IMG/VR virus record: IMGVR_UViG_3300025159_000001
Reading direction: 5' to 3' (one strand)
DNA length: 64,000 bases
DNA from: an uncultured virus (IMG/VR IMGVR_UViG_3300025159_000001)
Lineage: Duplodnaviria > Heunggongvirae > Uroviricota > Caudoviricetes
Shown: positions 15,880 to 63,443 of the stretch, piece after piece
Layout of the letters: every line of letters starts with the position of its first letter
Numbering within the stretch: position 1 is the first letter of the stretch
Translations under genes and position numbers: made by a program
The notes under the pieces: generated by a model
The model's input: only the letters and a program-made list of their open reading frames with translations
Told to the model about the DNA's origin: nothing
Database searches by the model: none

Positions 15880-18444
15880 TTAATCCTTAGGAACTTCATT
15901 ATTAACTCCTACGTTTAAAATCTGAAAACTTTTACTTTTATCCCTATAAATAGTGCCACCCTTTAATCCCATATTCCACATATAAATGAATATATCATAA
16001 ATATCTTCTACTGTAGAATCTTCTGGACAATTAATTGTTTTAGAAACCGCATTAGTCACATAATCCTGCCAAGTTGCCTGAATATCTACGTGCTCTCTCC
16101 AAGAAATCTCATGGGAAGTGCTAAATATGCGTTTTAGTTTTTCTGGAATTTTTTCCAGTCCTTCTAAACTTCCATACTCTTTTACATGAGAGATTACTTG
16201 TTCAATATCTTCTTCTGTTAAACCATATTTCTTTAGTTTTTTCTCTAGTATAGGATTTAATTCTATAATATAATCTTTAGCAATGTTCCCCACACCCTCA
16301 GTAATATTTCTTTTATAAGATAGTGCAAAAAACGGTTCTATACCAGAATTAACTCCTGCAAGTAGAGCAATCGTACCTGTAGGTGCTATTGAAGTTACGG
16401 ATACATTTCTTAAACCTATCTTTCTTATTTCTTCAATATTAAACTTTCCACCACTATACTTAGAATTTAACACTTTTTCTAATGGATAAAGATTAACTCT
16501 ATCTGATTCATACCAAGGGAACTTTCCTTTTTCTTTAGCTAATTCAATAGATTCTAACCAGGAGAAAAATGATATAAACCAACTTAAAAAATTACCTAAT
16601 TTTATTGATTCTTCACTACCGTAGGGAATTTCCAATTCTGCTAAAAGATCAGCAAAACCCATAACCCCCAATCCTAATCTCCTTAATCCTTTAGACCAAC
16701 TATTAATTTCTTCTATTGGAGTATAAGATAAGGTTTGTACATTATCTAGAAATCTTATTGCATTTCTAATTGAAAATTCTAAGAATTCTAAATTTAAACC
16801 TCTATCTCCATCATAAAAAGAATGTAAATTTAAAGAGCCTAAACAGCAAGGTTCGTAAGGCATTAGAGGAATTTCCCCACAATTAGCAGAAACTATACCA
16901 GAATAAATCCCCGCTATAGGTTCGGGATCGGATATAATATAGGTATGTGTACCATCTACAGTACCATTATAAACATCCTCTTTTTCTGTTAGTTTAGTTA
17001 TTCTAATTACTTTATGGTTGTATTTTCTACCTCTTTTAGAACGTCCATGAATTAAATTATGTTTTCTAGGTGTAATAGCTTCTAGATTTTCGGGACGGTT
17101 ATTAATTTCATTCCAGTCTTTATGATGGACTATATATCCTTTAGGGATTTCTCCATAAAAATATTCATATACCATCCTGGCTACATATTTATGTTTAGCT
17201 TTATTATCCCCCCAACCATGTGCACGTAAATGTTTATCAGTAGGATGGATACTGACAGAAAATGCTCTAACAGATTGTCCCCCTCTTAAATCCTCAGCTT
17301 TAGTTTTTTCCCCTCTAATTGTATAAAAACTATGATCTGGTGTACACTTAACCTTTAACCCGCTATCAAATTCCACTTCTACTAAATCTGCATTTTTTCT
17401 GGTTAGTTTTGGTTTTTCCATTATGGAAATTTCAGGGAGTTTAGTTTCTGGATTCCAAGTATACACTAAAACATCATACCCCTCTTTAGCTAAATCTTTA
17501 ATAATTCTAGGCCCATCAAAGACGGTTAAAATCTTTGTATCTCCTGTAATACAGGGATTTGTAGCTACCAAATCTCCTAAGTATGATGTAATATTATCTT
17601 CATTTGCCCTATCATAAAAATAAACTCCAGGGTCTCCACTTTCCCAAGTCATCTTAGAAATTTGTTTTAGTAAATCCTTAGCTGGTAGATTCTTTGTACT
17701 TTTTCCAGTTACTCTAGAGATTAAATCCCAACCTTGACCTGAATTAACTGATTCCATAAATTTATCTGTTAGTATAACAGAAATATTAAAGTGGGAAAGT
17801 TGGTCATCTTGTAAAGTTTTCTCTAGAACTTTGAAATACTTAATACCTTTCTTATCTAAGCTATTCAGCTCTAAATTTCTTTTATATTCCTCTAAAAGTC
17901 TAGTATTCCTAGAATTTGGTTTAGATTTAAAATCTATAAATTTTTCTACGTCAGGATGGTCTATCCTCAACATGCCCATTTGTGCCCCTCTTCTTGAGGC
18001 TTGTTGAATAACCTCGCCAGTTTGATCGAATAAAGACATAAAAGATAATGGGCCACTAGCTTGACCCCTTGTAGTTTTTATAGGTGCACCTTCTTCCCTT
18101 ATATTAGAGAAATCGTAACCTACGCCTCCTCCCCATGCAAAAATCTCTGCCGCATTTTTTAAAGTTTCATAAATCTCTGCTCTAGAATCCCCAATTGGCA
18201 GTACGAAACAATTATTAAGATTCTTTATATTTGTACCAGAATTAGCTATTATTCTACCACCTGGTAAAAATACTGAATTATATATCAGATTAAAAAAAAT
18301 TCTTTCAAACTTTTTCTTATTTTCTTCACTTTCTTCTGCACTAGCTATATAGCTAGCTATTCTAAAACACGCCTGTTCCCAAGTTTCTTCTGGAGAAGTG
18401 GCGTATTTCATTTTAAAAATTTTTTGAGCTTTTTTATCCAACAT
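15880..18444 (-). CDS. nrdJ: Class II (AdoCbl-dependent) ribonucleotide reductase, intein-containing
   Basis: PGGR, NCFV, GGGVG, RRGAQM, HPD, TNP[intein]CGE, CCLGSLNL, RRLGLGVMG, IAPTGT, GIEP, VSKTIN, KGGTIYR; no NrdB in the window. Confidence 0.9.
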   Translation of the reverse strand: MLDKKAQKIFKMKYATSPEETWEQACFRIASYIASAEESEENKKKFERIFFNLIYNSVFLPGGRIIANSGTNIKNLNNCFVLPIGDSRAEIYETLKNAAEIFAWGGGVGYDFSNIREEGAPIKTTRGQASGPLSFMSLFDQTGEVIQQASRRGAQMGMLRIDHPDVEKFIDFKSKPNSRNTRLLEEYKRNLELNSLDKKGIKYFKVLEKTLQDDQLSHFNISVILTDKFMESVNSGQGWDLISRVTGKSTKNLPAKDLLKQISKMTWESGDPGVYFYDRANEDNITSYLGDLVATNPCITGDTKILTVFDGPRIIKDLAKEGYDVLVYTWNPETKLPEISIMEKPKLTRKNADLVEVEFDSGLKVKCTPDHSFYTIRGEKTKAEDLRGGQSVRAFSVSIHPTDKHLRAHGWGDNKAKHKYVARMVYEYFYGEIPKGYIVHHKDWNEINNRPENLEAITPRKHNLIHGRSKRGRKYNHKVIRITKLTEKEDVYNGTVDGTHTYIISDPEPIAGIYSGIVSANCGEIPLMPYEPCCLGSLNLHSFYDGDRGLNLEFLEFSIRNAIRFLDNVQTLSYTPIEEINSWSKGLRRLGLGVMGFADLLAELEIPYGSEESIKLGNFLSWFISFFSWLESIELAKEKGKFPWYESDRVNLYPLEKVLNSKYSGGKFNIEEIRKIGLRNVSVTSIAPTGTIALLAGVNSGIEPFFALSYKRNITEGVGNIAKDYIIELNPILEKKLKKYGLTEEDIEQVISHVKEYGSLEGLEKIPEKLKRIFSTSHEISWREHVDIQATWQDYVTNAVSKTINCPEDSTVEDIYDIFIYMWNMGLKGGTIYRDKSKSFQILNVGVNNEVPKD
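16882..17553 (-). mobile_element. Intein (224 aa) with HNH endonuclease domain, in NrdJ
   Basis: Starts CITGDTKI, block B CTPDHSF, HNH motif VHHKDWNEINNRPENL...H, block F DVYNGTVDGTHTY, ends VSAN before the catalytic Cys of NPCGE. Confidence 0.9.
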
Positions 18445-37327: not shown

Positions 37328-37356
37328 CGTTTTAAATCTCCTTTGTTATTAATATG

Positions 37357-37428
37357 AGCCGATAGTAGGACTCGAACCTACAATCCCTCGTTTACAGGAC
37401 GAGGACTCTACCATTGAGCTATATCGGC
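37357..37428 (-). tRNA. tRNA-Thr(UGU), no encoded CCA, C at position 33
   Basis: GCCGATA-TA-GCTC[AATGGTA]GAGT-C-CTCGT[CCTGTAA]ACGAG-GGATT-GTAGG[TTCGAGT]CCTAC-TATCGGC-T. Confidence 0.85.
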
Positions 37429-37434
37429 ATTATA

Positions 37435-37842
37435 TCATAATCCTGGCCCTATTAGACGTTTATGTCTCATTTTAAACATATCTGTATTAGGAATTTGATG
37501 AAAAGTAACCATACTTTCAGATGGGTATTCCTTTTCGAGTTGTTTTACAATTTCATCAGCAATCTTTTTAATACCTTTTCTACGAGTATAATAGTTCACC
37601 TTTTCTATTTTAACTACAACTGGATCATCCTCATTTAACCAATCAATTGCTATAATCAGAATCATAGGGTGGTATTCTTTTCCATCAAAAGTTACAATTA
37701 ATTCTTTAGCTTCCTCTTCACCATATTTTTCCACTTTTATTCCCTTGTTAGTATCTTGTTCTAAATCCATTTCTGTCCATTTTATAACCAGTATAATCTC
37801 TAATATAATAATTATGCCTATGAGAATCCACTTGATTTCCAT
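37435..37842 (-). CDS. Hypothetical protein with N-terminal transmembrane anchor
   Basis: Hydrophobic N-terminus; AGGAG RBS. Confidence 0.55.
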   Translation of the reverse strand: MEIKWILIGIIIILEIILVIKWTEMDLEQDTNKGIKVEKYGEEEAKELIVTFDGKEYHPMILIIAIDWLNEDDPVVVKIEKVNYYTRRKGIKKIADEIVKQLEKEYPSESMVTFHQIPNTDMFKMRHKRLIGPGL

Positions 37843-37874
37843 TTAATCACTCCTATTATGTATACTTTCTTTAA

Positions 37875-38250
37875 CAAAGTGCCTATCTTAGGCACAATGA
37901 GTCCCTCGGTAACTTTTGGGCTTAGGCAGTCTCGAACATTACGGGAGAGACTTTCCCAACAATAGCGATGAACCTATTTCTAGGATGTTCCAGGTGGCGC
38001 TTTACACCATCGCTATTCCCAACGCCGACAGTCGGAGCAACTTTCGTTGGACTCTCTCCACTCAGCCTCAAAGACTGTTACCGTCTTGCTTTAACGGCAA
38101 TCTTCTGGAATTTTATGCCTCGAACTGTTTAGGTTCTCAAAGAACCCCGAGGGTAAACAGACAAATATAAAGAGGCTATGTTTTGAAACGAGTTATTCTC
38201 CTCCCCCTTCTGAATAACACCACATCCCTAAAAGGATGGCTTATACTACT
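37875..38250 (-). ncRNA. Large structured non-coding RNA, family not recognised
   Basis: More than 10 complementary helices including long-range and crossing pairs, GAAA tetraloops on the - strand, upstream TGnTATAAT and a 3' hairpin. Confidence 0.65.
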
Positions 38251-38256
38251 ATCTAT

Positions 38257-38265
38257 ATTATACCA
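38257..38265 (-). promoter_or_regulatory. Extended -10 promoter for the large ncRNA
   Basis: TGG-TATAAT on the - strand. Confidence 0.55.
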
Positions 38266-38342
38266 AAAAACTTCATTTTTTTATAAGGTTTTTGGTTAGA
38301 GTTTGGTTAAAATAAGATTAGAGTTTTCTAATCTTTATACTA

Positions 38343-38396
38343 TTGACTTTTTACAAAAATCTGGTATAGTATAGCAAGAATATTTCAATTTGTCAA
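38343..38396. promoter_or_regulatory. Overlapping, oppositely oriented sigma70 promoters at the strand switch
   Basis: + strand TTGACT(38343)-N16-TATAGT(38365); - strand TTGACA(38396)-N17-TATACT(38373); the two -10 boxes overlap. Confidence 0.75.
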
Positions 38397-38406
38397 GGAG
38401 AAAACT

Positions 38407-38622
38407 ATGATGGAAGAAAGGGATGCTTTAGAATCAGTTTTAGAATGTTTAGATTATTATGCAGATCATAGTAACTACGAAAGATTTGTTGATCCTGATT
38501 ATTTATGGTCGGGAGAAGAAAAGATTTATGATTCTAGAATAGATGAAGATTTAGGAGATTATGCTAGATATACATTGAGTATTTGTAGTAAAATTTTACA
38601 AAGACTTGTGGAGAAGTTATAA
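38407..38622 (+). CDS. Hypothetical protein
   Basis: 71-aa ORF with AAGGAG RBS. Confidence 0.6.
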   Translation: MMEERDALESVLECLDYYADHSNYERFVDPDYLWSGEEKIYDSRIDEDLGDYARYTLSICSKILQRLVEKL

Positions 38623-38624
38623 AC

Positions 38625-39146
38625 ATGGCAGTGCTTGAGGTTGTCACCAATCCTGCCCCCGTGCTGCGCAGAAAAGCCCGCAAGGTGGCCGAATTTGGGC
38701 CGGATTTGCAGAAACTGGTCGATGACATGGTGGAGACCATGCGAGCCGCCTCGGGCGTTGGGCTGGCAGCACCGCAGGTAGACGTGTCTTTGCGGGTGAT
38801 TGTGGTCGAATTCGGTGACGAGCAGGATGAGGAAGCCCCACCCAAATTGTATACGGTGGTAAACCCGGAGATCGTGCGCGTTTCGCTTGAAACCGAGGTA
38901 GGGAGCGAGGGATGTCTTTCTATCCCCGGATTTGTGGGCGAAGTCGAGCGCCAGGTTGCGGTCACCGTCAAAGGCCAGAACCGGCGAGGCCAAACGATTC
39001 GAATCAAGGCGCAGGGATGGCTGGCGCGCATCTTCCAGCATGAAATCGACCACCTGGATGGCGTGCTGTTTATCGACAGGGCCGAAAAAGTGTGGAGAGT
39101 GGAAGAAGCACTTGATAATAAAAGAGGAATAATGGAGAAATTATGA
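38625..39146 (+). CDS. def: Peptide deformylase (GC-rich, host-derived)
   Basis: GVGLAAPQV, EGCLSIPG and QHEIDHLDG motifs. Confidence 0.95.
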   Translation: MAVLEVVTNPAPVLRRKARKVAEFGPDLQKLVDDMVETMRAASGVGLAAPQVDVSLRVIVVEFGDEQDEEAPPKLYTVVNPEIVRVSLETEVGSEGCLSIPGFVGEVERQVAVTVKGQNRRGQTIRIKAQGWLARIFQHEIDHLDGVLFIDRAEKVWRVEEALDNKRGIMEKL

Positions 39147-49523: not shown

Positions 49524-50531
49524 ATGACTGAAAATAAAAATTTTAATATAACTACCACTATAGAACTTCTAAGAGAAGATGAAAAACTAGAGGGGGAAGC
49601 ATATGCAGGGATTAGCCTAAACCCCTACTTTCAATGGGCTAAAATCGTTGTAACAGATGATATAGCAAATGCTAATAAACAGAGAGTACCAGTAGAAGAA
49701 TTTGATAACATTATAAAAACTGGCATGCTTTCTCCTGTTAAATTAGCCCCAGGAAAAATATCTGATGGGCATCCAGAAGCTTTAGGACATGCTATTGGTA
49801 CTATTGCCAATTTGGTAAAAGAATCTAATAGAATAATTGCCTTAGCTGCACTATGGAAGAAAGAACGTCCAGAAGATATAGAAATGCTTAAAGAGAAGTT
49901 TATAAAAGGACAACCTCCTAATACTTCTTGGGAACTATCCTACTCTGAATCAGAATTTGATAATGCAGGTGTAGAAACCCTTAAGGGCATCTCTCTTAAT
50001 GGTTTGGCAGTGGTAGCCATGCCAGCCTATACTGGAAGGACGGCTTTTGTAGCCATGTCTTCCAGAAATAGTGAGGAGATTGAAATGGAAAAAGAGTTAG
50101 AAGAATTGAAAACTAAAAATGGAGAGTTAGAAGCTGAACTTAAAACTTTGAAAGAAACTTTGAGTCAGAAAGATAAAGAGGCTTCAGATGCAAAAGCTGA
50201 ACTTGAAACTCTCCGAAAATTTAAGACAGATATTGAAGCCGAAAAAGCCGAAGCTGAAAAGTTGGCCTCTATAAAAAGTAAATTTATTGAGGCTGGTTTA
50301 GAGAAAGAGGATGCTTTCTTTGAGGAAAAGAAAGAAATGTTCTTGAAAATGGAAGATACCGCCGTTGATTTTATGGTGCAGGAATTAGTTGCTTTTTCTG
50401 CTGGTAAAGGTTCTGCCTCTGCCGGTTTAGAAAAGAAACCAAAAGTTCCTAATCTTACTTCTACTGGTAGTGACCCTCTTTCTCCTAAAGAGTTAGCAGA
50501 AGCTTTGAGGGAAATGAATAAAAAGAAATAA
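49524..50531 (+). CDS. Prohead protease / scaffold protein (probable)
   Basis: N-terminal NANKQ...H...SWEL...PAY protease-like domain and C-terminal coiled coil; start at 49524 follows a GAGGT RBS. Confidence 0.7.
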   Translation: MTENKNFNITTTIELLREDEKLEGEAYAGISLNPYFQWAKIVVTDDIANANKQRVPVEEFDNIIKTGMLSPVKLAPGKISDGHPEALGHAIGTIANLVKESNRIIALAALWKKERPEDIEMLKEKFIKGQPPNTSWELSYSESEFDNAGVETLKGISLNGLAVVAMPAYTGRTAFVAMSSRNSEEIEMEKELEELKTKNGELEAELKTLKETLSQKDKEASDAKAELETLRKFKTDIEAEKAEAEKLASIKSKFIEAGLEKEDAFFEEKKEMFLKMEDTAVDFMVQELVAFSAGKGSASAGLEKKPKVPNLTSTGSDPLSPKELAEALREMNKKK

Positions 50532-50551
50532 CCTTTGGAGGTTTAAAAATT

Positions 50552-51121
50552 ATGGAACTTAATCATTATGGAGATACAGTTCTAGGCGTTGTAGCAACGG
50601 AAGATATTGTTGAAGGTAGAATGGTGCTTTTAGCTCCACATTCCGCTAGTAGGAATTTTGGGAGTCAGGCCGATTTACCTGGTGTTAAATTACCCGATAC
50701 TTCCGATGAAGCTGCCAGAGCTAGATATATTACAAAATTTGAGCAGGATAATCGTAGCCTGCCTATTTATCAACCTCAGCCTGCATTTGATTTTGCACTT
50801 AGATATGGTTTCGACCAGGCTGAAAATGCCCCATTTAGTGCCGAAGTTTTTATTACCCATCCAGGTGTTCAAGAAGGTAGAACTATTCCCTCAGGCTCTG
50901 GTGCAGTAGTTTATGGTGAAGGAATTTACACCGTAGCTTCTGGTGCGTATGTTTATAGTGCGGATATTGAAAATGTGGGTGCACCTTTGACTGTTGCCGA
51001 TACTGCTAGCGATTCTGCTGGTGATGCGGGCAAGCCAAAGTATTCTACCAGCGGTGTTGTTGGTGAAGTGATTCGCTATGACTCAGAAACTGGCAGACTT
51101 ACATTCAAGATTTTGCATTAA
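50552..51121 (+). CDS. Head decoration / capsid-stabilising protein (probable)
   Basis: Lies between scaffold and major capsid protein; strong GGAGG RBS; Gly/Ala-rich. Confidence 0.55.
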   Translation: MELNHYGDTVLGVVATEDIVEGRMVLLAPHSASRNFGSQADLPGVKLPDTSDEAARARYITKFEQDNRSLPIYQPQPAFDFALRYGFDQAENAPFSAEVFITHPGVQEGRTIPSGSGAVVYGEGIYTVASGAYVYSADIENVGAPLTVADTASDSAGDAGKPKYSTSGVVGEVIRYDSETGRLTFKILH

Positions 51122-51138
51122 TTTGGAGGTAATATAAA

Positions 51139-52059
51139 ATGGCAGATGAATTGAAAGTAAACGAAGCAATTGCTTCCCTTATGAAAGATAAAAGTCAAAG
51201 AGATGCTTTTGCTGAAATGATTGTCGAATATGTGAAACCTAATCACATTACGGTTGATTTTATTAGCCTTCTACTTAATACTCGCAGCCTAAAGCCTGGA
51301 GATTCTCTAGTTAAAAAGCTCAGAAAAGGAATCGAAGTTCACACTTTAGTTCCTGGTTCTATCCACCTTGCACATGAAGTGACTTTGACAGATAGAGTTA
51401 ACTACATGCTAGATGGTTCTGATGTCAAAGTTACCTACAATGAGTGGGAACTTGAAGCCGGAGAAATTGGCACAGTTGATGAGATTAAGCAGGAGATGTT
51501 TGCAAAGCTTAGAGATCACTTTTATAATAAAGTCTTTACAGCTTTGACTACGGTCTGGACAGCAGTTAATACTCCAAATAACTTTACCAGTGTTGGTGGT
51601 GCTATTACTTCTACAGCGTTGGAAGATGCTATTGATAGAATTAATGAGACTACAGGTGGAGTTAAAGCTGTTGTAGGTACTAGAGCAGCCATGACTCCTA
51701 TCACCAAATTTGGTGCTTTTTGGAATGATGGTGGTGGCACTCCTACAGTTTGGGGAATTGATTCCCAATTGGAAGAGGTTGTGCGTAGAGGTATGCTTGG
51801 TAGATACTACGGTGCGCCTTTAATTGTTTTGGATCAGATTTACGATAACTTGGTGGATTTTGCACCTATGCTCCCCACAGACAAAATTCTTGTTATTGGT
51901 GAGAATGTTGGTGAGTTCATCACTTATGGTGAAGCTAAATCTAAGCAGTATGAAGATCCCCGTCCTACACCCCCACAATGGTTCTTAGAACTCTATCAGC
52001 AATACGCGCTGTTGATCTGGAACGCTATGGGTCTTTACGTAATTGGCGGCCTGAGCTAA
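51139..52059 (+). CDS. Major capsid protein (probable)
   Basis: 306 aa, strong GGAGGT RBS, gene order, GMLGRYYGAPL pattern typical of HK97-fold capsids. Confidence 0.75.
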   Translation: MADELKVNEAIASLMKDKSQRDAFAEMIVEYVKPNHITVDFISLLLNTRSLKPGDSLVKKLRKGIEVHTLVPGSIHLAHEVTLTDRVNYMLDGSDVKVTYNEWELEAGEIGTVDEIKQEMFAKLRDHFYNKVFTALTTVWTAVNTPNNFTSVGGAITSTALEDAIDRINETTGGVKAVVGTRAAMTPITKFGAFWNDGGGTPTVWGIDSQLEEVVRRGMLGRYYGAPLIVLDQIYDNLVDFAPMLPTDKILVIGENVGEFITYGEAKSKQYEDPRPTPPQWFLELYQQYALLIWNAMGLYVIGGLS

Positions 52060-52069
52060 AAAATTTAGT

Positions 52070-52612
52070 TTGGTTTTTACAAGGAGAAAAATAATGTTAC
52101 AAGGTACTTTAGATTCTAAAGTTTTTTCACTAATGCAAACGGGACAGCCCTATAAAAGATATATTAAAACAATACTAGGAAAAGTTTATGTAAATGTTTT
52201 AAATCCCTTTTCTGGCAAGCAAGAAGGTAGAATATTAGTTGGTAATCCAAGAAGAAAAGATGAAGACTGTGTTATAGAAATTTGGAGTGAGATGGAAGAT
52301 GCTTTCTTTAAAAGAACTAATAAGAAACACTTTGAAACTGGAAATATTAGAGAGTTTAGGGAAGCTATTAAAACTACAGAAGTAAAATCTCCGAATTTAC
52401 TAACAGAAGAAGAAGTTGATGAAATCCTCTCAATGAGTAATAGATTCTTGGCACTACAGAGTAAAGTAAACCAACTGACTACAATTGCACCAGTATCACG
52501 TCTTTTAGAAAGGGCTAAAGAATTGGATAAATCACAAAAGATAGTTTCTTTTCTAGAATCTAAACTAAGTGAAATCCAAGCTAAAGAATATAGTTCACCT
52601 GAGATTAAATAA
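52070..52612 (+). CDS. Hypothetical protein (likely start ~52093)
   Basis: ORF after the capsid gene; AAGGAG RBS before the internal ATG. Confidence 0.55.
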   Translation: MVFTRRKIMLQGTLDSKVFSLMQTGQPYKRYIKTILGKVYVNVLNPFSGKQEGRILVGNPRRKDEDCVIEIWSEMEDAFFKRTNKKHFETGNIREFREAIKTTEVKSPNLLTEEEVDEILSMSNRFLALQSKVNQLTTIAPVSRLLERAKELDKSQKIVSFLESKLSEIQAKEYSSPEIK

Positions 52613-52633
52613 AATTAATAGGAGAAAAAAAAT

Positions 52634-53230
52634 ATGGCCACAATTGCTTTTGAAGGCTTTATGGGGACTACCCCCGACTGGACTGACCTAGCTGCAAATA
52701 CTTTGGTATTTAGTAGCTCTTTAACCGATTTAACAGCACCTATTACTGTTGCTACATGGCAAGATGGTACACATGCAGGGTCTAATGATCCTGGTACGGA
52801 TCAATGTGGAGCTAATCATATGAACAATGTGAAATGGCTCACCTCTTCAACCATGAGTGTGAATGGTGCTGCTTCTGAAAATATTATTGACGCAAATCTG
52901 GCTGCTAATGAATGTTCTTTGAGAATTCATTTCAACCACTCTTCAGCAGTAGTAGTTACTGGCGTCTCAATTTATTGTTATGATGGTTCTACACCTGCTA
53001 ATCCTGGTGTTGAGGTTGATATGCAGGCATTTGAACGCGGAGTTTCTGCCTCAGCTTGGACAGTATTAAATAACTACAGTGGTTCTGTTGGTGGTACTGG
53101 TAGTGCCATGTCGCTTGCCAACTCTGGTTCAGCGACTGACCATTATTGGTACTTGGCACTTTCCATCAGTCCCGAGACTGTTGGTAGCAAAGCTTTAGTG
53201 GATTTAGGTGCTACATTAACATATAGTTAA
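52634..53230 (+). CDS. Virion structural protein (beta-rich)
   Basis: Ser/Thr/Ala-rich, strong RBS, structural block. Confidence 0.55.
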   Translation: MATIAFEGFMGTTPDWTDLAANTLVFSSSLTDLTAPITVATWQDGTHAGSNDPGTDQCGANHMNNVKWLTSSTMSVNGAASENIIDANLAANECSLRIHFNHSSAVVVTGVSIYCYDGSTPANPGVEVDMQAFERGVSASAWTVLNNYSGSVGGTGSAMSLANSGSATDHYWYLALSISPETVGSKALVDLGATLTYS

Positions 53231-53246
53231 TAAAAGGATAAAAAAA

Positions 53247-53627
53247 ATGGAATCAAGGCATGAAGGTTGGATTGCTAGTCTTAGCAATGGAGAAACTATA
53301 TTTGAACATGAGGCACAACAGGGAGAGATAAGTGCATGGCAACAATTGTTACGTTATCTAAAAGCAACAGGTACAAGAATTACAATGATCCGTCTACAAC
53401 ATGGCAGGGAAACAATTGTAGCAGTACCTAATGCTGATGGTTATGTACAATGTTATCAAATACACAAATCTGTTTTTACTGGTAGAGAACATCGTTTTCA
53501 TGGGATTGGTTCTGTGTTTGGTGATAAAGTTTTCATTACTTGGATGAACGCTATGGGAGAGGTTCTACAAGGAGTAGAACCATTAGAAAAATTCCATGTT
53601 CATTCAACAATGGACTGGCAAACATAG
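53247..53627 (+). CDS. Hypothetical protein
   Basis: 126-aa ORF. Confidence 0.6.
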   Translation: MESRHEGWIASLSNGETIFEHEAQQGEISAWQQLLRYLKATGTRITMIRLQHGRETIVAVPNADGYVQCYQIHKSVFTGREHRFHGIGSVFGDKVFITWMNAMGEVLQGVEPLEKFHVHSTMDWQT

Positions 53628-53647
53628 AATAAAAAACTTAAAGTAAG

Positions 53648-53750
53648 ACAATAAAATACCCCGCTCTTGCCGGATGGCATCCTGGGCAGGGTCATATCAG
53701 ATTTGATATGACTTTGTTTGGTTTCATTCGGTAGGTGCGGGGTTTTTGTT
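53648..53750 (+). ncRNA. ~100-nt G-U-rich rod-like RNA hairpin
   Basis: Nested helices ACCCCGC/GCGGGGT, CTTGCCGGATG/CATTCGGTAGG, CTGGGCAGG/TTTGTTTGG and GTCATATCA/TGATATGAC. Confidence 0.6.
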
Positions 53751-53766
53751 ATAGAGGAGTCTGATA

Positions 53767-55149
53767 ATGACAACTTATTATGTAGATTGGGAAAAAGCAG
53801 ACGACAGCGGCAATGGGCTAACACTTGCCACAGCTAAAAAGACATTAAATGGCGCAGAGGATATTCCGGTTGCCGCTGGGGATCATGTGTGGGTGCGTCC
53901 TGGAGTTTACCGAGAAACATTAACTGTAGATGTATCTGGTTCATCTGGCAACCCAATTACCTATCAGGGCGATGTGGCAGGACAGATATGGCATCCTGGA
54001 GGCGTAGTGCGGATAACGGGAAGTGATAACGATCAAACAGTTGTTAGAGAGTTAGGAATAGACGCAACGTCAAAAAGTTACAGGGTTTTTTCTGGTTTTC
54101 ATTTTGATGCAATTAATAGCCGGGCCATAAATGTTATTGGAAATGGAAATACTGGCTGGATTATTGAAGATATATCTATTACAAATACAAATTCTGGAAT
54201 TTTATTTTCAAACGAGTTATCAAATACAATCATAAGAAGGGCAATAATTTTGAGATTGAGCGGTGTAGGAATAAATTTCTTTACTTTATCAGCTCCAATC
54301 GAAACTACAGGTGTGGTTGTTGAAAATTGCATTATATCTTCTCACATATGGGAACCAGCAATAGAAATGGATAAAATTAGTGGAATACTTGTAAAGAATT
54401 GTTTTTTGTTTGGTTGTGATATAGGTTTGTTGATAGGAAATAATTTAGGTGAAGGGCAAAGCAACTTTATTTATAATTGTGTAATTGCCAAAACTGGAGC
54501 TGGATTATATGCACAGGTATTAGGAGAAATAGTAGAAGATTATAATGTATTGTATAACAATGATAATGATAGGATTAATGTTTCTACTGGCACAAATTCA
54601 ATATCTCATCAACTCCTTACAGAACCACAAATTTTATACCCAGGGCATCATATTGGGTATTCCACCGAATTACTTTCGCGAAATTCGTCTGTTGCCCGCC
54701 GCACTGATAACGGTGATGCCCCCACAGATGACTTTTATGGTATGACCCGCCCAGTCACTAATGGTAAACGCTCCTGGGGGCCAATTCAATTTACTGGTGC
54801 AGTAAGAGATACTACCATCACAGATGGCAGCGGCGCAAGCCTGAAATTGCCCGATGCTGGTGAGCAGTTCTTCATGCGCGTCCCCACCGCTGGAACTCAA
54901 ATGACAATAAGCCTGAAAGTCTACCGAGAAGTCGATTACGCCGGAACGCTCCCACAGCTTATCGTCAGACAGCCTGGGCAGGCTGATGAGACAGATACCG
55001 ATACTGGTAATGCGGAAGAATTTAATACCCTGAGTGTCACCATCTCGCCCGCAACCCTACCGCCCTGGATAGACGTTTTCATCAGATCCAATAATACGGC
55101 AAGCTCCGGCAATTTTTCTACATATTGGGATACTTTAACCGTATCTTAG
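53767..55149 (+). CDS. Right-handed parallel beta-helix (pectin-lyase-like) virion protein
   Basis: TYYVD...D.GNG, AGD.VWV.PG.Y.E, and repeated I..N..I / V.NC strands. Confidence 0.75.
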   Translation: MTTYYVDWEKADDSGNGLTLATAKKTLNGAEDIPVAAGDHVWVRPGVYRETLTVDVSGSSGNPITYQGDVAGQIWHPGGVVRITGSDNDQTVVRELGIDATSKSYRVFSGFHFDAINSRAINVIGNGNTGWIIEDISITNTNSGILFSNELSNTIIRRAIILRLSGVGINFFTLSAPIETTGVVVENCIISSHIWEPAIEMDKISGILVKNCFLFGCDIGLLIGNNLGEGQSNFIYNCVIAKTGAGLYAQVLGEIVEDYNVLYNNDNDRINVSTGTNSISHQLLTEPQILYPGHHIGYSTELLSRNSSVARRTDNGDAPTDDFYGMTRPVTNGKRSWGPIQFTGAVRDTTITDGSGASLKLPDAGEQFFMRVPTAGTQMTISLKVYREVDYAGTLPQLIVRQPGQADETDTDTGNAEEFNTLSVTISPATLPPWIDVFIRSNNTASSGNFSTYWDTLTVS

Positions 55150-55157
55150 GTTGATCT

Positions 55158-58100
55158 ATGCCTACTACTGGTGCACTTCTCCCGCAATCTGCGGTAACTG
55201 CCTCTGAAAGTCCCTGGTCTGATAATGACTGGGTAAATCCGAATAATATCTTTGGCGCGGGTGAGGCAGAGGTTACCGCCGCAACGTTCGATGCGGGCGA
55301 TCAAACCTTTGTCCTAAAAGCATACAACTTCAATTTCAGCTCCATTCCAGATGGAGCAACTATCCTGGGTGTGCGTTGTATTATCAATGCGCGCGAGGCT
55401 GTTGCCCCAGGGTTGATTGATCTGGTGCAATTATTAGACATTAACGGGGCGAAGGTTGGAACTAATCTAGCTGCTACACCGGTCGATTTGACCACCAGCG
55501 CAGCCGATTATACATTCGGTTCGTCAACTAATAAATGGGGTAATGAGCTAACGACAGCCTGGGTCAAGGATGCTGATTTTGGCGTTGCTATCGGTATGCT
55601 GGCAGGTGGAACGGGAAATAATAATGTCGATGTTTTTTGCGATTATGTAACTCTGGAGGTTTTCTATTCGATTGCGATAACAGACAATCAGCCCATTTAT
55701 ATAAAAGGCAAGTCGAGCATCACAGATAATCAACCAATATTTCTCAAGGGAAAAGATCAAAGCACAGACAATCAGCCCATTTATCTAGGCGGCAAATTAT
55801 CCATCTCAGATAACCAACCGATATTTCTGTCGGGCATAGCAACTATTTCGGATAATCAATCTATTTATAGCAAGGGCAGGGCAAATATAGTTGATAACCA
55901 GCCCATTTTTGTTGTTACAGAAGAAGTCCCTTATTCCCCTGTTGATACCGGCCTTTTAGATACCTGGATTACTAACCGTGTCTGGCCCGATATTGCTATC
56001 AAGACCGGAAGTACAGGAGATGTAGATACCTGGATCACCAATAGATTGTGGCCCGATATTTATGTGGTTGGCGAAGAGGCCATGCCCACGGCCAACCAGC
56101 CTATCTACCTCAAGGGAAAGGCCGCAATATCAGACAATCAGCCTGTTTATTTAGCAGGCGGGATTGTAGAGACTGATAACCAATCCGTATTTCTGAAGGG
56201 ACAGGCTGAGCAAACTGATAATCAACCAGTCTATTTGACCGGTCAAGACAGCCATACCGATAATCAACCCGTATATTTAGCGGGCTCTCTTGACATAACC
56301 GACAATCAACCCATTTACCTTGCCGGTAAAGCGGAACAATCGAATAACCAGCCTGTCTATTTATCCGGTAAGAATACCGAACAGGCTAACCAGGGAATTT
56401 ATCTATCCGGCAAGGCGAGCATTACAGATAACCAATCTATATATACCGCAGGCAAAGATACCGAAACCGATAACCAGCCCATCTATATTAGGGGGCAGGA
56501 CACCGAAGCCGCCAACCAGCCTATATTCTTGTCGGGCAAGGATTCTTCAACTAATAACCTGTCAATATTCCTGGCTGGCAAAGCCTCGCTCTCTGACACA
56601 CAGCCCATTTATTTATCGGGCAGCGCAGAGGCCACGAACAACCAGCCCGTATACCTGCAAGGGAAAAACTCGGAGAGCAATAACCAACCGATATTCCTGA
56701 CTGGCGTTGATACTCAAACTGACACACAGCACATCTATCTGGCAGGCTCGCTCGATATTACCGATAACCAGGCAATCTATTTAGCGGGTCGGGAAGAGCA
56801 ATCAAATAGCCAGCCCATATTTACGCGCGGCAAGCAAAGCGAGCAAAACAATCAACCCATATTCCTGGCGGGGAAAGATGAGGCAACAGCTAATCAGCCG
56901 ATCTACCTGGAGGGCGAATCGGCTGCGGTTGAAATCTCAGACAATCAGTCCATATATCTGAGGGGAAGCGCGGAGGAAAGCGCGTCTCAGGCGATCTACC
57001 TTTCCGGGCGGGCAGTCGAAACGGACAATCAACCCGCATTTCTCCAGGGTAAGGCAAGCATAACCGAGAACCAGGAAATCTACCTTGCTGGCAGTGTTCA
57101 GATTCAAAACAATCAGCTTATCTATCTTGCGGGCAAACAAACAACCAGCGCAGTACAGCCCGTTTTCCTGCAAGGCAAGTCTAGTATTACAGATAATCAG
57201 CCGGTTTATTTACTGGGGAAGGCTACAGAGCAAGCATCACAATCCATTTTCCTAAACGGGCAAGCCAGCCTCACGGATAGTCAAGAGATTTTCCTGGCCG
57301 GACGAAACACAGAGGCCAATAACCAGGCCATTTACCTCGCTGGCAAGGCCGAGATTCAAAATAACCAACCCGTCTATCTTGGCGGGCAAGAAAGTGAAAT
57401 CAATAATCAGTCTATATACCTTGCGGGGCAATCATCCCTCACAGAGACGCAGCCGGTTTATCTTGCGGGCAAGGATACCGAGACCAACAACCAGCCGATC
57501 TTCCTGCATGGTCAGGCAATAGAACAAGCTAACCAGCCAGTATTTCTGAACGCTGAAGACACGGCGATCAATAGCCAACCAATTTATTTGCATGGCAAGG
57601 CGAGTGAGGCGAATAACCAGCCAATCTTTATAATCGGTGAAAGCGCACTCTCCAATACCCAATCTATCTACCTCGCCGGTGTTGATACTCATACTGATGT
57701 TCAACCCATCTACTTGACTGGTGGCATTATAGTCACAGAAACGCAATCAGTTTATCTGGTTGGTAAAGCATCTGAGACTGACAATCAATCAATTTTCCTA
57801 TCTGGTAAAATTGAGCTATCCTTCAGTCAATCCATTTATCTAAATGGAAATGCTGAAATCTCCAATAACCGGGCTATTTATACAAGGGGTAAAGCAAGCA
57901 CATCCGATAGCCAAGATATTTATTTATCTGGTGGGATAATTGTCCAGAATAATCAAATAATATACTTAAAAGGTTCTGCTGAAATAATTGATAATCAAGT
58001 TATTTATACTTCCGGTAAGGATAGTATTGCAGATAATCAAACTTGTTATCTTAAAGGACAAAATGTACAAACGAATAATCAACCTATCTATTTGGTTGGG

Positions 58101-61220: not shown

Positions 61221-63443
61221 ATGCAAAATATATTTTGGATTTCAGATGGAATAGCCAAAACAGGTTTCAGTACGGTAGCAATGAATATAATTAAAAATAT
61301 GCCCAAAGATAGGTATGATGTACATCATTTAGCAATAAATTACTATGGTGATCCGCATACTTATGATTGGAAGATATATCCAGCAGCTATAAAAAATGAT
61401 TTACTAGGATTTAATAGAGTTAAAGATTTTTTACAAGCACCTTTGGATGGAATTTTTATTCTCAATGATGTTTGGGTAATTGATAGATATTTAAAATTGA
61501 TTGAAGAGTTTTATGGAGAAAATCCTCCTCCTCCAATTATTGTTTACTTTCCCATAGATTCTATGTTTTTAGACCCTGAATGGTTTTCAAGATTTCACTT
61601 AGTTAAAAAAGCTTTTACTTATACAAACTTTGGAAAAAATGAAATAGACAGACTAAATTTAAAAGAGTTAGATGTTGGAATAATTCCTCATGGTGTAGAT
61701 TTAAAATCTTTTTATAAAATAGATAAACTCTCAGCTAGAGAAGTTGTTTTTAAAGAAAATTTTGAAGAATTTAAAGACGCTTTTGTAGTATTAAATGCAA
61801 ATAGAAACCAACCTAGAAAAAGAATTGACTTAACAATAGAAGGTTTTTCTAGATTTGTCAAGAATAAACCTAATGATAATATAAAACTTTATTTACATAT
61901 GGGCATAAAAGATGTAGGTTGGGATATTGTTAAATTAAGTGCTAGATTGGGGGTGGATGAAAGATTGATTTTATCTGGTAGCAATATCGGTTCTCCTAAT
62001 ATATCAGAAGAGGTTCTAAATCTTATATATAACTCCGCTGACGTGGGTATAAACACTTGTTATTTACCTGGAACTAAAGTTTTAACTGAGAATGGAAGTA
62101 AAAATATAGAAGAGATTGCTCCAGGAGAAAAGGTATTTTCCCATTTAGGAATATTAAGAGATGTGAAAAAGACCTTTAAATTTAGTAAAAATGACGAAGA
62201 GGTTCTTAAAATCACTCCTTACGGAATTTTACCTCTTACTCTAACTAAAAATCATAAGCTATATTCTATATTACCCCCATATCTCAGATTAAACAGAAAG
62301 TATAAGAAAATTCTTTTGGAAAATTTAGAGCCAGATTTTATAGAGAGTAAATATTTAATGGAAGGTTCTTTACTAACTTTCCCAATAATTAAAGATGAGA
62401 AAATTTCTATAGGCACTAAAACAGCCTTTATTTATGGAGCATTTTTAGCCGAAGGATCTACCAACAAGAGTGGGCTTGTTTTCTCCTTAGATTCGAGAAT
62501 ATATGATGATGAACTAAGAAATGAGATTATTTCTTGTATGAAGGAAGTTTATAGTCTCGAACCTCATATTTCAAATATGGATAGAAATAGACAAAATATT
62601 TATTTTTATTCATCCAAATTGAGCAAAGAATTTAGAGAAAAACTCGGCCCTAATGCCCACAATAAAAAACTTCCTAATGAATTACTTTTTATGAAAAGAG
62701 ATGAAAAATTAGCCCTTCTTAGGGGAGCAATTTTAGGGGATGGAAGTTTCGATCATACCACAATATCCTATACAACAGTTTCAGAAGAGCTGGCTTTACA
62801 AATTTGGTTTATTTTAACTACCCTTGGAGGTATAGCACCGAGCATTAATAAACGAAGTCGAGGCGAATTCGTTGTTAGAGTTTATGGAAATAGTTCTATA
62901 AACTTAGCTAAAGAATGTAATATAATAAATAAAAGTAAAAAATTGGTTCAAGAAAAGAAACAGCAGAGGCCAAAAATTATAGTTACTGAGGACTTCTTGT
63001 ACTACCCCATAAGAAAAATAGAAAAAATTAATTACACCGGCCTTGTCTATGACTTAGAGGTAGATGGAGAACATTCTTATGTTTCACACGTGTCTGGACA
63101 TAATTCTGTTGGTGAAGGTTGGGGATTAGTAAACCATGAACATGCAGTAACTGGCGCACCTCAAATAGTGCCAGCACATTCAGCGTTATTAGAATTATAT
63201 AGAGATAACGGAATCTTAATTCCTATAGATAAATGGGTTTTCAATAAAGATCCATTAACATTAGGTGGAGAAGTTAGGGCAGAAGACGTGGCTATAGCTT
63301 TAGAAAGTATCTATCAAAATAGAGATACTCTATATAACAGACTATCTGAGAAAACCCTTAATAAGTTCGCTGCACCTGAATATGATTGGAAAAATATAGT
63401 AGAGAAATATTGGCTACCGGCTTTTGAGGAAATATGGAAATAA
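61221..63443 (+). CDS. Glycosyltransferase family 4 (GT-B) with intein
   Basis: TGFS, IPHGVD, NRNQPRKR, YNSADV and [intein]SVGEGWGL..HEH motifs. Confidence 0.85.
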   Translation: MQNIFWISDGIAKTGFSTVAMNIIKNMPKDRYDVHHLAINYYGDPHTYDWKIYPAAIKNDLLGFNRVKDFLQAPLDGIFILNDVWVIDRYLKLIEEFYGENPPPPIIVYFPIDSMFLDPEWFSRFHLVKKAFTYTNFGKNEIDRLNLKELDVGIIPHGVDLKSFYKIDKLSAREVVFKENFEEFKDAFVVLNANRNQPRKRIDLTIEGFSRFVKNKPNDNIKLYLHMGIKDVGWDIVKLSARLGVDERLILSGSNIGSPNISEEVLNLIYNSADVGINTCYLPGTKVLTENGSKNIEEIAPGEKVFSHLGILRDVKKTFKFSKNDEEVLKITPYGILPLTLTKNHKLYSILPPYLRLNRKYKKILLENLEPDFIESKYLMEGSLLTFPIIKDEKISIGTKTAFIYGAFLAEGSTNKSGLVFSLDSRIYDDELRNEIISCMKEVYSLEPHISNMDRNRQNIYFYSSKLSKEFREKLGPNAHNKKLPNELLFMKRDEKLALLRGAILGDGSFDHTTISYTTVSEELALQIWFILTTLGGIAPSINKRSRGEFVVRVYGNSSINLAKECNIINKSKKLVQEKKQQRPKIIVTEDFLYYPIRKIEKINYTGLVYDLEVDGEHSYVSHVSGHNSVGEGWGLVNHEHAVTGAPQIVPAHSALLELYRDNGILIPIDKWVFNKDPLTLGGEVRAEDVAIALESIYQNRDTLYNRLSEKTLNKFAAPEYDWKNIVEKYWLPAFEEIWK
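62058..63104 (+). mobile_element. Intein (349 aa) with LAGLIDADG endonuclease, in the GT4 gene
   Basis: Starts CYLPGTKV, block B LTKNHKLY, LAGLIDADG-like GAFLAEGS and RGAILGDGS, block F VYDLEVDGEHSY, ends GHN before Ser. Confidence 0.9.

What the first reader, a model, noticed from the sequence alone, without database searches (positions are those of the whole stretch)
37875..38250. ~370-nt highly structured, probably pseudoknotted ncRNA at the head of the replication operon
Seen in sequence: a GC-enriched intergenic tract with many complementary segments. In + coordinates these are 37961-37970/38008-38017 (10 bp), 37944-37950/38053-38059, 37927-37932/38072-38077, 38125-38131/38154-38160, 38117-38121/38172-38176, 38132-38137/38141-38146, 38078-38084/38094-38100 and 38192-38198/38212-38218. 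Two further pairs cross these: 37903-37909/38147-38153 (CCCTCGG/CCGAGGG) and 37988-37993/38105-38110. The - strand shows GAAA tetraloops (CAAC-GAAA-GTTG, CCTA-GAAA-TAGG), an upstream TGnTATAAT and a terminal GTGCCTA/TAGGCAC hairpin. I cannot match it to RNase P RNA, tmRNA, 6S, raiA or a riboswitch. Inference: a large phage ncRNA or ribozyme of unrecognised class.
Basis: partly seen in the sequence, partly recalled or inferred. Interest (0 to 1): 0.8.

Follow-up and report, generated by a model that had tools for sequence, protein, structure and literature searches.

The report
Large knotted RNA before replication genes
An uncultivated phage carries, just ahead of its DNA-replication genes, a gene for an intricately folded, multiply knotted RNA of about 350 bases that two related phages also keep and that matches no catalogued RNA family; what it does is still unknown.

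Summary
Window 37873-38250, read on the minus strand, encodes a real structured non-coding RNA. Its conserved core is 38181-37900. Two other uncultivated phage contigs (L007, L004) carry a homologue at the same divergent promoter hub, co-oriented with the PolA/RecA/DnaB block. The three RNAs are only 53-68% identical, yet 223 of 224 helix cells pair (28-40% when one strand is slid). An unbiased scan found 34 compensatory pairs, against a maximum of 9 in 200 shuffles. The model has about 12 nested helices and at least four or five pseudoknots. No Rfam 15 family matches any copy. The 84-aa ORF is not conserved. Function is inferred only. The most likely reading is a stand-alone, early-transcribed folded RNA, because L007 and L004 have a perfect promoter between the RNA and the replication genes. 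A lineage-specific duplicated 3' segment suggests a folding switch tied to the terminal hairpin. Limits are three sequences, no expression data, and 88 PolA relatives whose upstream DNA could not be fetched.

The parts
38368..38396 (-). Strong sigma-70-type promoter (TTGACA-17-TATACT, TG-extended, 11 of 12). It sits back-to-back with the plus-operon promoter 38343-38370 and is the positional equivalent of the RNA promoters of L007 and L004.
38257..38265 (-). The predicted start is near 38250, about 70 nt before the conserved core.
   Evidence: it aligns with the -10 of the L007/L004 RNA promoters
38192..38238 (-). Variable 5' domain with two hairpins (38238-38223 and 38218-38192). L007 and L004 also have hairpins here, but with different sequences.
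37900..38181 (-). Conserved core of the RNA (282 nt). It holds the invariant blocks ACAUAG, AUAUUUGUC, AGGCUGAGUGG, CCGAC, UGUUGG and CCGUAAU, and helices P2, P3, P3a, P4, P5, P6, P6a, P7, P9, P10 and P11.
38147..38153 (-). PK1 5' strand, in the internal loop of P3. It pairs with 37903-37909 in the loop of P11. There are 7 bp in all three RNAs, 5 of them compensatory.
37903..37909 (-). PK1 3' strand, in the loop of hairpin P11.
38105..38110 (-). P-alpha 5' strand. It pairs with 37988-37993 inside the P7 domain, so the pairing crosses P7. It is 5-6 bp with 3 compensatory pairs.
37988..37993 (-). P-alpha 3' strand.
37961..38017 (-). P7 domain. The closing helix 38017-38008/37970-37961 is 10 bp here, 7 and 8 bp in the homologues, with 6 compensatory pairs. 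It encloses P-beta 3' (37999-37996), P-alpha 3' and hairpin P9 (37984-37973, GAAA loop; GUAA in L004).
   Evidence: (I6)
37928..37958 (-). H-type pseudoknot. S1 is 37958-37954/37946-37942 (one compensatory pair). S2, which is P10, is 37952-37947/37933-37928 (4 compensatory pairs). The conserved CCGUAAU spans S1 and loop 3.
37916..37927 (-). P5 3' strand GCCU (37927-37924; it pairs with AGGC at 38068-38065), followed by the PK2 3' strand CCCAA (37920-37916; it pairs with 38022-38018).
37921..37928 (-). X1: an 8-nt word, UGCCUAAG, that recurs at 37894-37887 (X2) as the 5' half of the terminal hairpin. The same duplication, with a different sequence, is present in L007 and L004.
37873..37895 (-). 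Terminal hairpin (7 bp, 37895-37879) followed by UUUGUU. It looks like an intrinsic terminator.

Best explanation
This is the gene of a previously uncatalogued, compactly folded non-coding RNA of about 330-375 nt, on the minus strand, with its conserved core at 38181-37900.

Shown:
- Sigma-70-type promoters lie upstream at the phage's divergent early-promoter hub.
- The RNA can fold into about a dozen helices locked together by at least four or five long-range or pseudoknot pairings (PK1, P-alpha, P-beta, PK2, and the S1/P10 H-type knot).
- It ends in a hairpin.
- Sequence comparison shows selection acting on the RNA fold, not on a protein.

Inferred:
- It is made as a discrete, abundant early transcript and acts as a folded RNA particle in its own right. 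It could be a scaffold, decoy or ribozyme, and might self-associate through the loop-loop pairing PK1. It is less likely to be a simple leader of one gene.
- The 7-8-nt segment just after the core (X1) is duplicated as the 5' half of the terminal hairpin (X2). The 3' half of that hairpin can therefore pair with either copy. Correct folding of the core takes up X1 in P5 and so favours the terminal hairpin. That would couple RNA folding to 3'-end formation and, in this phage, to how much transcription runs on into the replication genes.
For: Homologues and position:
- Homologues lie at the same divergent junction, same orientation, upstream of PolA/RecA, in 2 other contig families.
- A profile search of all 72 fetched loci (209 kb) gives full-length matches only in these three families.

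Fold:
- All 16 helices listed pair perfectly in 3 of 3 RNAs, apart from one mismatch.
- 223 of 224 cells pair, against 28-40% when the 3' strand is slid by 1-8 nt. Substitutions in helices are almost all two-sided.
- Helix positions are less conserved (42-61% identity) than non-helix positions (59-74%).
- RNAalifold on the unbiased MAFFT alignment gives z -4.49 with 0 of 200 shuffles as good; the antisense strand gives z -3.42.
- The unbiased stack scan finds 10 stacks with compensation and 34 compensatory pairs, against a shuffle mean of 1.75 and maximum of 9.

Strand:
- GNRA loops (GAAA, and GUAA in L004) and G-U pairs occur only on the minus strand.
- Promoters scoring 11 of 12 with TG lie upstream in the sense direction in 3 of 3 copies.

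Stand-alone gene:
- L007 and L004 have a 12-of-12 consensus promoter between the RNA's terminal hairpin and the next gene.
- The genes next to the RNA differ in each phage.

X1/X2 duplication:
- The shared words are 8, 7 and 8 nt with lineage-specific sequence. They were reached by 7, 86 and 27 of 5000 shuffles.

Not a known family:
- No Rfam family at gathering score or at E<=10.
Against: - There are only three distinct sequences, and two of them are 68% identical, so there are about two independent comparisons.
- Helices were located by eye on the same sequences that are then counted. only partly remove that bias.
- The single-sequence fold of the sense strand is not exceptional (z -1.87) and the opposite strand scores better (z -3.07).
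- There is no direct evidence on expression.
- In the window itself no promoter was found between the RNA and the first replication-block gene. Here the RNA must at least sometimes be the 5' part of the operon transcript, which fits a leader as well.
- A terminator-like tail is present in 1 of 3 copies only.
- P5 competes with a local hairpin (GUCU/AGGC) that is equally conserved.
- No partner or activity is known.
- L072, a phage with a 41%-identical PolA, has no copy in the 4.5 kb upstream of its PolA gene.
Confidence: 0.5

Rival explanations
1. It is a cis-acting leader or attenuator. The RNA is the 5' untranslated part of the replication-operon transcript. Its folding, perhaps set by a ligand, a protein or tRNA, decides through the X1/X2/Y2 competition whether the terminal hairpin forms and transcription stops before the replication genes. 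It could alternatively modify the polymerase for read-through, as put or EAR RNAs do.
For: - It lies at the head of the replication block and is co-oriented with it in 3 of 3 copies.
- In the window, a terminator-like hairpin with a U-tract follows the RNA, and no promoter lies between the RNA and the first gene.
- The duplicated X1/X2 word gives a mutually exclusive pairing, as in terminator/antiterminator pairs.
- Earlier notes of this scan report other large RNAs before phage polA operons (leads only, not tested).
Against: - L007 and L004 have a 12-of-12 consensus promoter after the RNA, and their terminal hairpins have no U-tract.
- The downstream gene differs in each phage.
- A 280-nt core with four or five pseudoknots is far larger than any known attenuator or riboswitch aptamer (from my own knowledge).
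- Only 1 other minus-strand terminator-like site was found in the operon beyond the RNA's own hairpin, so there is little to antiterminate.
Confidence: 0.2
2. It is an origin-associated primer RNA. The transcript, folded as ColE1 RNA II must be, forms a persistent hybrid near the strand-switch point and is extended by the phage PolA to start replication.
For: - The locus is the divergence point of the two gene blocks and the cumulative GC-skew minimum of the window.
- It is next to a family-A polymerase block.
- L007 and L004 carry a consensus promoter antisense to the 5' part of the RNA, reminiscent of RNA I/RNA II.
Against: - The skew minimum is confounded with gene orientation.
- The antisense promoter is absent from the window copy.
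- No iterons or an obvious unwinding element are conserved. Only a 9-nt direct repeat (2 copies) and small inverted repeats were found at 38253-38335.
- Nothing here tests hybrid formation.
Confidence: 0.1
3. The structure works at the DNA level. A single-stranded DNA fold (a single-strand initiation or primosome-assembly type signal) on the minus strand would be the selected element, and no RNA would be needed.
For: Covariation cannot by itself tell RNA from single-stranded DNA. The position is at a likely replication landmark.
Against: - Strong promoters aim into the element in 3 of 3 copies.
- GNRA-type loops, G-U pairs and an H-type pseudoknot with a 1-nt loop 1 are typical RNA features.
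- Five crossing pairings over 250 nt would need a very long single-stranded DNA stretch.
Confidence: 0.04
4. It is a very divergent member of a described family (RNase P RNA, tmRNA, group I intron, GOLLD/ROOL, T-box and so on) that Rfam models fail to reach.
For: The size and the number of pseudoknots recall tmRNA, RNase P and ROOL. The P-alpha/P7 crossing has the same order as P3/P7 of group I introns (my own comparison from textbook knowledge).
Against: - No hit to any of these families at E<=10 in any of the 3 copies. The listed hits are 12.6-17.2-bit matches to unrelated small families.
- ARAGORN finds no tmRNA in the window, or in the 4 loci scanned, which include L007 and L004.
- No interrupted gene flanks the element.
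- Junction lengths do not fit group I. P7 is 7-10 bp and the segment between the hairpin inside the P7 domain and the P7 3' strand (the position of group I J8/7) is only 2 nt.
Confidence: 0.03
5. The plus-strand 84-aa ORF (37916-38170) is the functional element, and the apparent RNA structure is a by-product.
For: The ORF is open in the window.
Against: - It has no Pfam or PHROG match.
- L007 has no ORF of 40 aa or more on either strand across the element, and L004 has only a 56-aa one elsewhere.
- tblastn of the 84-aa product against both homologous regions gives only E 3.1.
- The substitution pattern is paired, not codon-like.
Confidence: 0.01

Closest known systems
ROOL (RF03087) and GOLLD (RF01998), the large ornate RNAs of phages and prophages
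   Same: They are phage-borne, several hundred nucleotides long, and have many helices and several covarying pseudoknots. They have no known protein partner and no known function. Passages of PMC12286853 read state that a covarying 'tertiary' kissing loop of ROOL is in fact intermolecular. That could also apply to PK1 here.
   Different: No covariance-model match. This RNA is smaller (core 282 nt). It sits at the early-promoter hub before the replication genes, not in tRNA islands; a tRNA is nearby in only 1 of 3 copies. Multimer formation was not tested.
phi29 pRNA (RF00044)
   Same: It is a phage-encoded structured RNA made from an early promoter and working as RNA. Its loop-loop pairing builds a ring (from my own knowledge).
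   Different: No model match. That RNA belongs to a different phage type, with protein-primed replication and about 20 kb. Nothing here links this RNA to packaging.
ColE1 RNA II / RNA I
   Same: It is a long, structure-dependent transcript next to where a family-A polymerase would start. An antisense promoter lies within its 5' part in L007 and L004.
   Different: The antisense promoter is missing in the window. No origin was demonstrated. RNA II has no comparable set of pseudoknots (from my own knowledge).
Terminator/antiterminator leaders (riboswitches, T-box, HK022 put, EAR)
   Same: It sits at the start of a long operon. It has a 3' hairpin that is terminator-like in the window, and a duplicated segment that allows mutually exclusive pairing.
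   Different: No Rfam hit to any such family. A separate consensus promoter follows the RNA in 2 of 3 copies. The core is much larger and more knotted.
Unpublished notes of this scan: 'large knotted RNA before phage polymerase' (e1-6025011, e1-5702915, e1-5785610)
   Same: These are large (420-500 nt), pseudoknotted, uncatalogued RNAs directly upstream of phage PolA operons.
   Different: They come from other genomes (giant freshwater phages with a minimal PolA). Their sequences were not visible, and the look-ups by sequence found no look-alike. Kinship with this RNA is untested.

Membership tests
Any Rfam 15 family (4227 covariance models) | A score at or above the family's gathering threshold. 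| tested here: not met
   At gathering score the whole window gives only tRNA. Loci L004-L007 give only tRNAs. At E<=10 the three RNA regions give only 12.6-17.2-bit matches to unrelated small families.
Bacterial RNase P RNA (RF00010/RF00011) | A model match, with the conserved P4 pseudoknot regions near the 5' and 3' ends. | tested here: not met
   No RNase P match at E<=10 in 3 of 3 copies. The only GGGAAAGUC-like word lies near the 3' end and is not conserved in L007 or L004.
tmRNA | A tRNA-like domain formed by the two ends, a tag reading frame, and detection by ARAGORN or Rfam. | tested here: not met
   ARAGORN finds only tRNA-Thr in the window and no tmRNA in L004, L007, L025 or L027. 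There is no Rfam tmRNA match.
Group I intron (RF00028) | A model match, insertion in a host gene with flanking exons, and a short P7 with J8/7 of about 6-7 nt. | tested here: not met
   No match at E<=10. No interrupted ORF flanks the element. P7 is 7-10 bp, and only 2 nt separate the hairpin inside the P7 domain from the P7 3' strand, the position of group I J8/7. The expected junction lengths are recalled from my own knowledge.
ROOL / GOLLD | A match to RF03087 or RF01998. | tested here: not met
ROOL / GOLLD | RNA-only multimer held together by intermolecular kissing loops. | not testable with these tools
   PK1 is a loop-loop pairing of 7 bp with covariation. Whether it forms in cis or in trans cannot be told from sequence.
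Transcription attenuator / riboswitch-type leader | No promoter between the element and the regulated genes. | tested here: inconclusive
   None was found in the window. A 12-of-12 consensus promoter is present in L007 and L004.
Transcription attenuator / riboswitch-type leader | An intrinsic terminator with a mutually exclusive alternative pairing. | tested here: inconclusive
   A terminator-like site is present in 1 of 3 copies. An alternative pairing through the duplicated X1/X2 word is possible in 3 of 3 copies.
ColE1 RNA II-type primer | A persistent RNA-DNA hybrid at the origin, processed and then extended by a family-A polymerase. | not testable with these tools
   The only evidence is position: the strand-switch point and the GC-skew minimum.
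ColE1 RNA II-type primer | An antisense regulator RNA transcribed from within the 5' part. | tested here: inconclusive
   An antisense consensus promoter lies inside the RNA gene in L007 (3611-3582) and L004 (2745-2717), but not in the window.

The most novel reading that the evidence does not exclude
This would be a new class of ornate phage RNA that works without being a message. It could be an RNA-only assembly in which the covarying loop-loop pairing PK1 joins molecules, as in ROOL, GOLLD or pRNA. It could be a new ribozyme. Or it could be a structured RNA cofactor or primer of the phage's PolA-based replication. It may belong to a wider, still unpublished habit of phages of placing large knotted RNAs before their polymerase genes.
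Probability: 0.25. Interest if true: 0.85.

Novelty: new variant of a known kind. Interest (0 to 1): 0.7.

Why it matters
Large RNAs with many interlocking pseudoknots are rare. Where their roles are known they are ribozymes, ribonucleoprotein cores or self-assembling particles. Only a handful of phage examples exist (pRNA, GOLLD, ROOL), and most of those have no known function.

This RNA is compact, with a core of about 280 nt. It has clear helix boundaries and covariation for both nested and crossing pairings. It sits at the earliest promoter hub, next to the replication genes of an uncultivated phage lineage. A host-like deformylase gene suggests that the host is in the Anaerolineales.

The RNA is a tractable target for probing, multimer tests and cryo-EM. 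It also bears on whether phages commonly use structured RNAs to start or control replication-gene expression.

Tried and rejected
Homologue searches:
- blastn of the RNA against 50,697 GenBank phage records found no match.
- Five scans of the IMG/VR viral contigs with DNA patterns made from the conserved blocks, and one scan each of the metagenome and genome collections, found only the three known contig families. The other hits were short chance matches in tRNAs, coding DNA and GC-rich DNA, judged by eye and by profile search.
- Protein-guided searches with PolA gave two relatives with no RNA match in the part fetched (L008, 24% identity; L072, 41%). A third, L005, ends inside PolA, so its upstream DNA is not on the contig.
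- The same PolA search of the genome collection found nothing. The 135-aa neighbour finds only its own contig. GenBank phages have no PolA above 34% identity.
- There is no second copy in the window.

Expression and population data:
- No RNA holder was listed among public runs.
- Contigs of 4 DNA runs showed no variant letters across 37400-38700, so there is no population-level covariation to use.

Earlier notes of this scan:
- Nothing was found for this genome or by sequence.

Published catalogue (PMC10690425):
- The abstract, passages and supplementary files 3-6 were searched. Files 1 and 2 (zip) could not be read.
- None of the four contig numbers occurs in the files searched.
- The candidate RNAs it lists within 25 bp of DNA_pol_A genes are 37-92 nt long and come from marine or gut viruses.
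- Full-text searches for a described RNA of this kind found none.

Other rejections:
- No covariance model was built. The MAFFT sub-alignment (A4) misplaces several helices, and no unsearched sequence collection was left to scan.
- My own early ideas of a GGC/GCC hairpin inside P7, and of a pairing between the P6 internal loop and UGUUGG, are superseded by P-alpha and the H-type knot.

Full report
**Setting.** The window is about 30% GC and reads as a tailed-phage genome.
- A minus-strand block (37842 down to 15880) encodes a 135-aa protein, tRNA-Thr, a 115-aa protein, family-A DNA polymerase with 3'-5' exonuclease, a RecA/UvsX-like recombinase, DnaB helicase, a Toprim protein, ribonucleotide reductase and nucleotide-metabolism enzymes.
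- A plus-strand block starts at 38407.
- The finding lies in the 564-nt gap between the two blocks. It is a GC island: 0.50 at 37900-38099 against 0.21-0.33 in the adjacent minus-strand block.
- The window's own assembly is not held. An identical copy sits on an IMG/VR contig and on a 90-kb metagenome contig.

**Known families.** Rfam 15 gives only the tRNA at gathering score over the whole window. At E<=10 over 37700-38450 the only hit is a 16-bit partial match to an unrelated sRNA. The two homologous regions likewise give only 12.6-17.2-bit matches to unrelated small families. ARAGORN finds no tmRNA.

**Homologues.**
- The RNA has no blastn match among GenBank phages.
- Loci found through the polymerase showed weak, collinear, same-strand matches directly upstream of PolA in L007 (which is the same as L006).
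- Block searching then revealed a copy in L004.
- The three RNAs share invariant blocks separated by segments of quite different sequence: ACAUAG, AUAUUUGUC, AGGCUGAGUGG, CCGAC, UGUUGG, CCGUAAU.
- Core identity is 55% (window/L007), 53% (window/L004) and 68% (L007/L004).
- Every further scan returned only these three contig families plus short chance matches. A profile search of all 72 fetched loci confirms this.
- These scans need exact block matches. PolA has 88 cluster-level relatives at 32-56% identity whose flanks I could not fetch. 'Three members' is therefore a lower bound.
- The one further relative examined, L072 (PolA 41% identical), has no copy and no comparable gap upstream of PolA.

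**Structure.** I anchored the sequences on the invariant blocks and located the helices in each RNA.
- All pair perfectly in 3 of 3 RNAs, with one mismatch in PK2 of L007, and many have complete sequence turnover. Examples:
  - P2: GCCUC/GAGGC, GUCCC/GGGAC, GUACC/GGUAC
  - PK1: CCCUCGG/CCGAGGG, UCUGAUC/GAUCAGG, CCCCUGG/CCAGGGG
  - P-alpha: UUCCAG/CUGGAA, CCCAG/CUGGG, CUACUG/CAGUAG
  - P7 and P10 likewise
- Over 14 helices, 223 of 224 cells pair (220 Watson-Crick, 3 G-U, 1 mismatch). When the 3' strand is slid by 1-8 nt, 28-40% pair.
- Changes are overwhelmingly two-sided. Helix positions are less conserved than the rest.
- I ran two controls that do not use my helix list:
  - RNAalifold on the plain MAFFT alignment of the core gives z -4.49 on the sense strand (0 of 200 column shuffles as good) and z -3.42 on the antisense strand.
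  - A blind scan of the anchored alignment for stacks of 4 or more pairs kept in all three RNAs finds 29 stacks. Ten of them have compensation, 34 compensatory pairs in all. Shuffles give a mean of 1.75 and a maximum of 9.
- That scan also revealed two more pairings:
  - An H-type pseudoknot formed by UGGGA/UCCCG (UGGUA/UACCG in the homologues) with P10.
  - A 4-bp P-beta.
- The model for the window copy has 108 pairs, 27 of them crossing. Coordinates are verified.

**Strand and coding.**
- The GNRA loops (GAAA; GUAA in L004), the G-U pairs and the better alifold score favour the minus strand.
- Promoters scoring 11 of 12 with a TG extension point into the element from upstream in all three: window 38396-38368, L007 3476-3504, L004 2612-2640. 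In each case the promoter is back-to-back with the promoter of the opposite block.
- The 84-aa plus-strand ORF is not kept. L007 has no ORF of 40 aa or more across the element. tblastn of the ORF product gives only E 3.1.

Eight of the ten are supported, including both pseudoknots. Two are not conserved and clash with covarying P6 and P10: 37944-50/38053-59 and 37927-32/38072-77.

**What it does (inference).**
- The flanking core genes are syntenic, but the genes touching the RNA differ: 135 aa plus tRNA plus 115 aa in the window, three small ORFs in L004, and PolA directly in L007. The RNA is therefore not an operator of one particular gene.
- L007 and L004 have a 12-of-12 consensus promoter abutting the RNA's terminal hairpin. 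There the replication genes do not depend on the RNA's promoter. This favours a separate RNA gene.
- In the window no such promoter is seen, and the hairpin has a U-tract. Here read-through must feed the operon.
- In each RNA the 7-8 nt after P10 (X1) recur as the 5' half of the terminal hairpin (X2), with a lineage-specific sequence: UGCCUAAG, GCCUAGAA, GUCUGGA. These were reached by 7, 27 and 86 of 5000 shuffles.
  - The hairpin's 3' half can therefore pair with either copy.
  - The AGGC of block C can pair with X1 (P5) or with a local GUCU.
  - This looks like a folding switch that ties completion of the core to formation of the 3' hairpin. It is a hypothesis.
- The locus is also the GC-skew minimum. 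L007 and L004 have an antisense consensus promoter inside the RNA gene. These two points keep an origin/primer role alive. However, the skew is confounded with gene orientation, and the antisense promoter is missing in the window.

**Comparison.** The nearest known things by kind are ROOL and GOLLD. They are large, multiply knotted phage RNAs of unknown function that form RNA-only cages. In ROOL a covarying 'tertiary' kissing loop proved to be intermolecular (PMC12286853, passages read). There is no model match to them or to pRNA.
- Earlier notes of this scan describe other large knotted RNAs before phage polymerase genes. These are unchecked leads, and their kinship to this RNA could not be tested.
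- A published catalogue of viral candidate RNAs does not list these contigs in the files I could search. Its PolA-adjacent candidates are 37-92 nt. Two zip supplements could not be read and may bear on this.

**Verdict.** This is a real RNA gene of a new family. Its structure is well supported for three sequences, and its function is open. I put about 0.9 on 'genuine structured RNA not in Rfam'. I put 0.5 on the stand-alone folded-RNA reading, 0.2 on a cis leader or attenuator, and 0.1 on an origin/primer role.

Noticed in passing
window 38625-39146 (+): The peptide deformylase gene is a 57% GC island in a phage of about 30% GC. Its product is 93% identical to a deformylase labelled Anaerolineales bacterium, and 72-86% identical to over a hundred others. 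It looks like a recently captured host gene and a clue to the host. It is absent from the L007 and L004 neighbourhoods.
   Followed up: partly
window 38343-38396; L007 3476-3530; L004 2612-2665: Two near-consensus promoters stand back to back with overlapping, palindromic -10 elements, one for each gene block. The same layout occurs in all three phages, so RNA polymerase binding in one direction probably excludes the other.
   Followed up: partly
L007 3582-3611 (-); L004 2717-2745 (-): An 11-12 of 12 consensus promoter lies antisense inside the RNA gene. Its -35 is the complement of conserved block B plus the first bases of P3. The window copy keeps block B but lacks the promoter.
   Followed up: partly
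window 15880-18444 (-) and 61221-63443 (+): The ribonucleotide reductase large subunit carries an intein with an HNH nuclease. A 740-aa protein carries an intein with LAGLIDADG domains.
   Followed up: no
window 2370-3812 (+), 4403-5503 (+), 11390-12265 (+), 13825-14835 (+): A DUF2828/DUF7788 protein, an amidoligase, a class-I glutamine amidotransferase and an RNA ligase lie in one plus-strand block. This may be an RNA-repair or modification module. No link to the RNA was tested.
   Followed up: no
window 37356-37428 (-): tRNA-Thr (UGU) lies one gene downstream of the RNA. L007 has tRNA-Asn and tRNA-Met 4.5 kb downstream. L004 has none in the locus.
   Followed up: yes
window 50000-58000: GC rises to 0.40-0.47 over the region that includes the 1712-aa ORF (55158-60296). 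That ORF has only weak, scattered Pfam matches.
   Followed up: no
window 38031-38035 and 37956-37960 (-): The invariant blocks CCGAC and GUUGG are complementary to each other, although each is also part of another supported helix (P6 and the H-type knot). This could be an alternative pairing or a coincidence.
   Followed up: no
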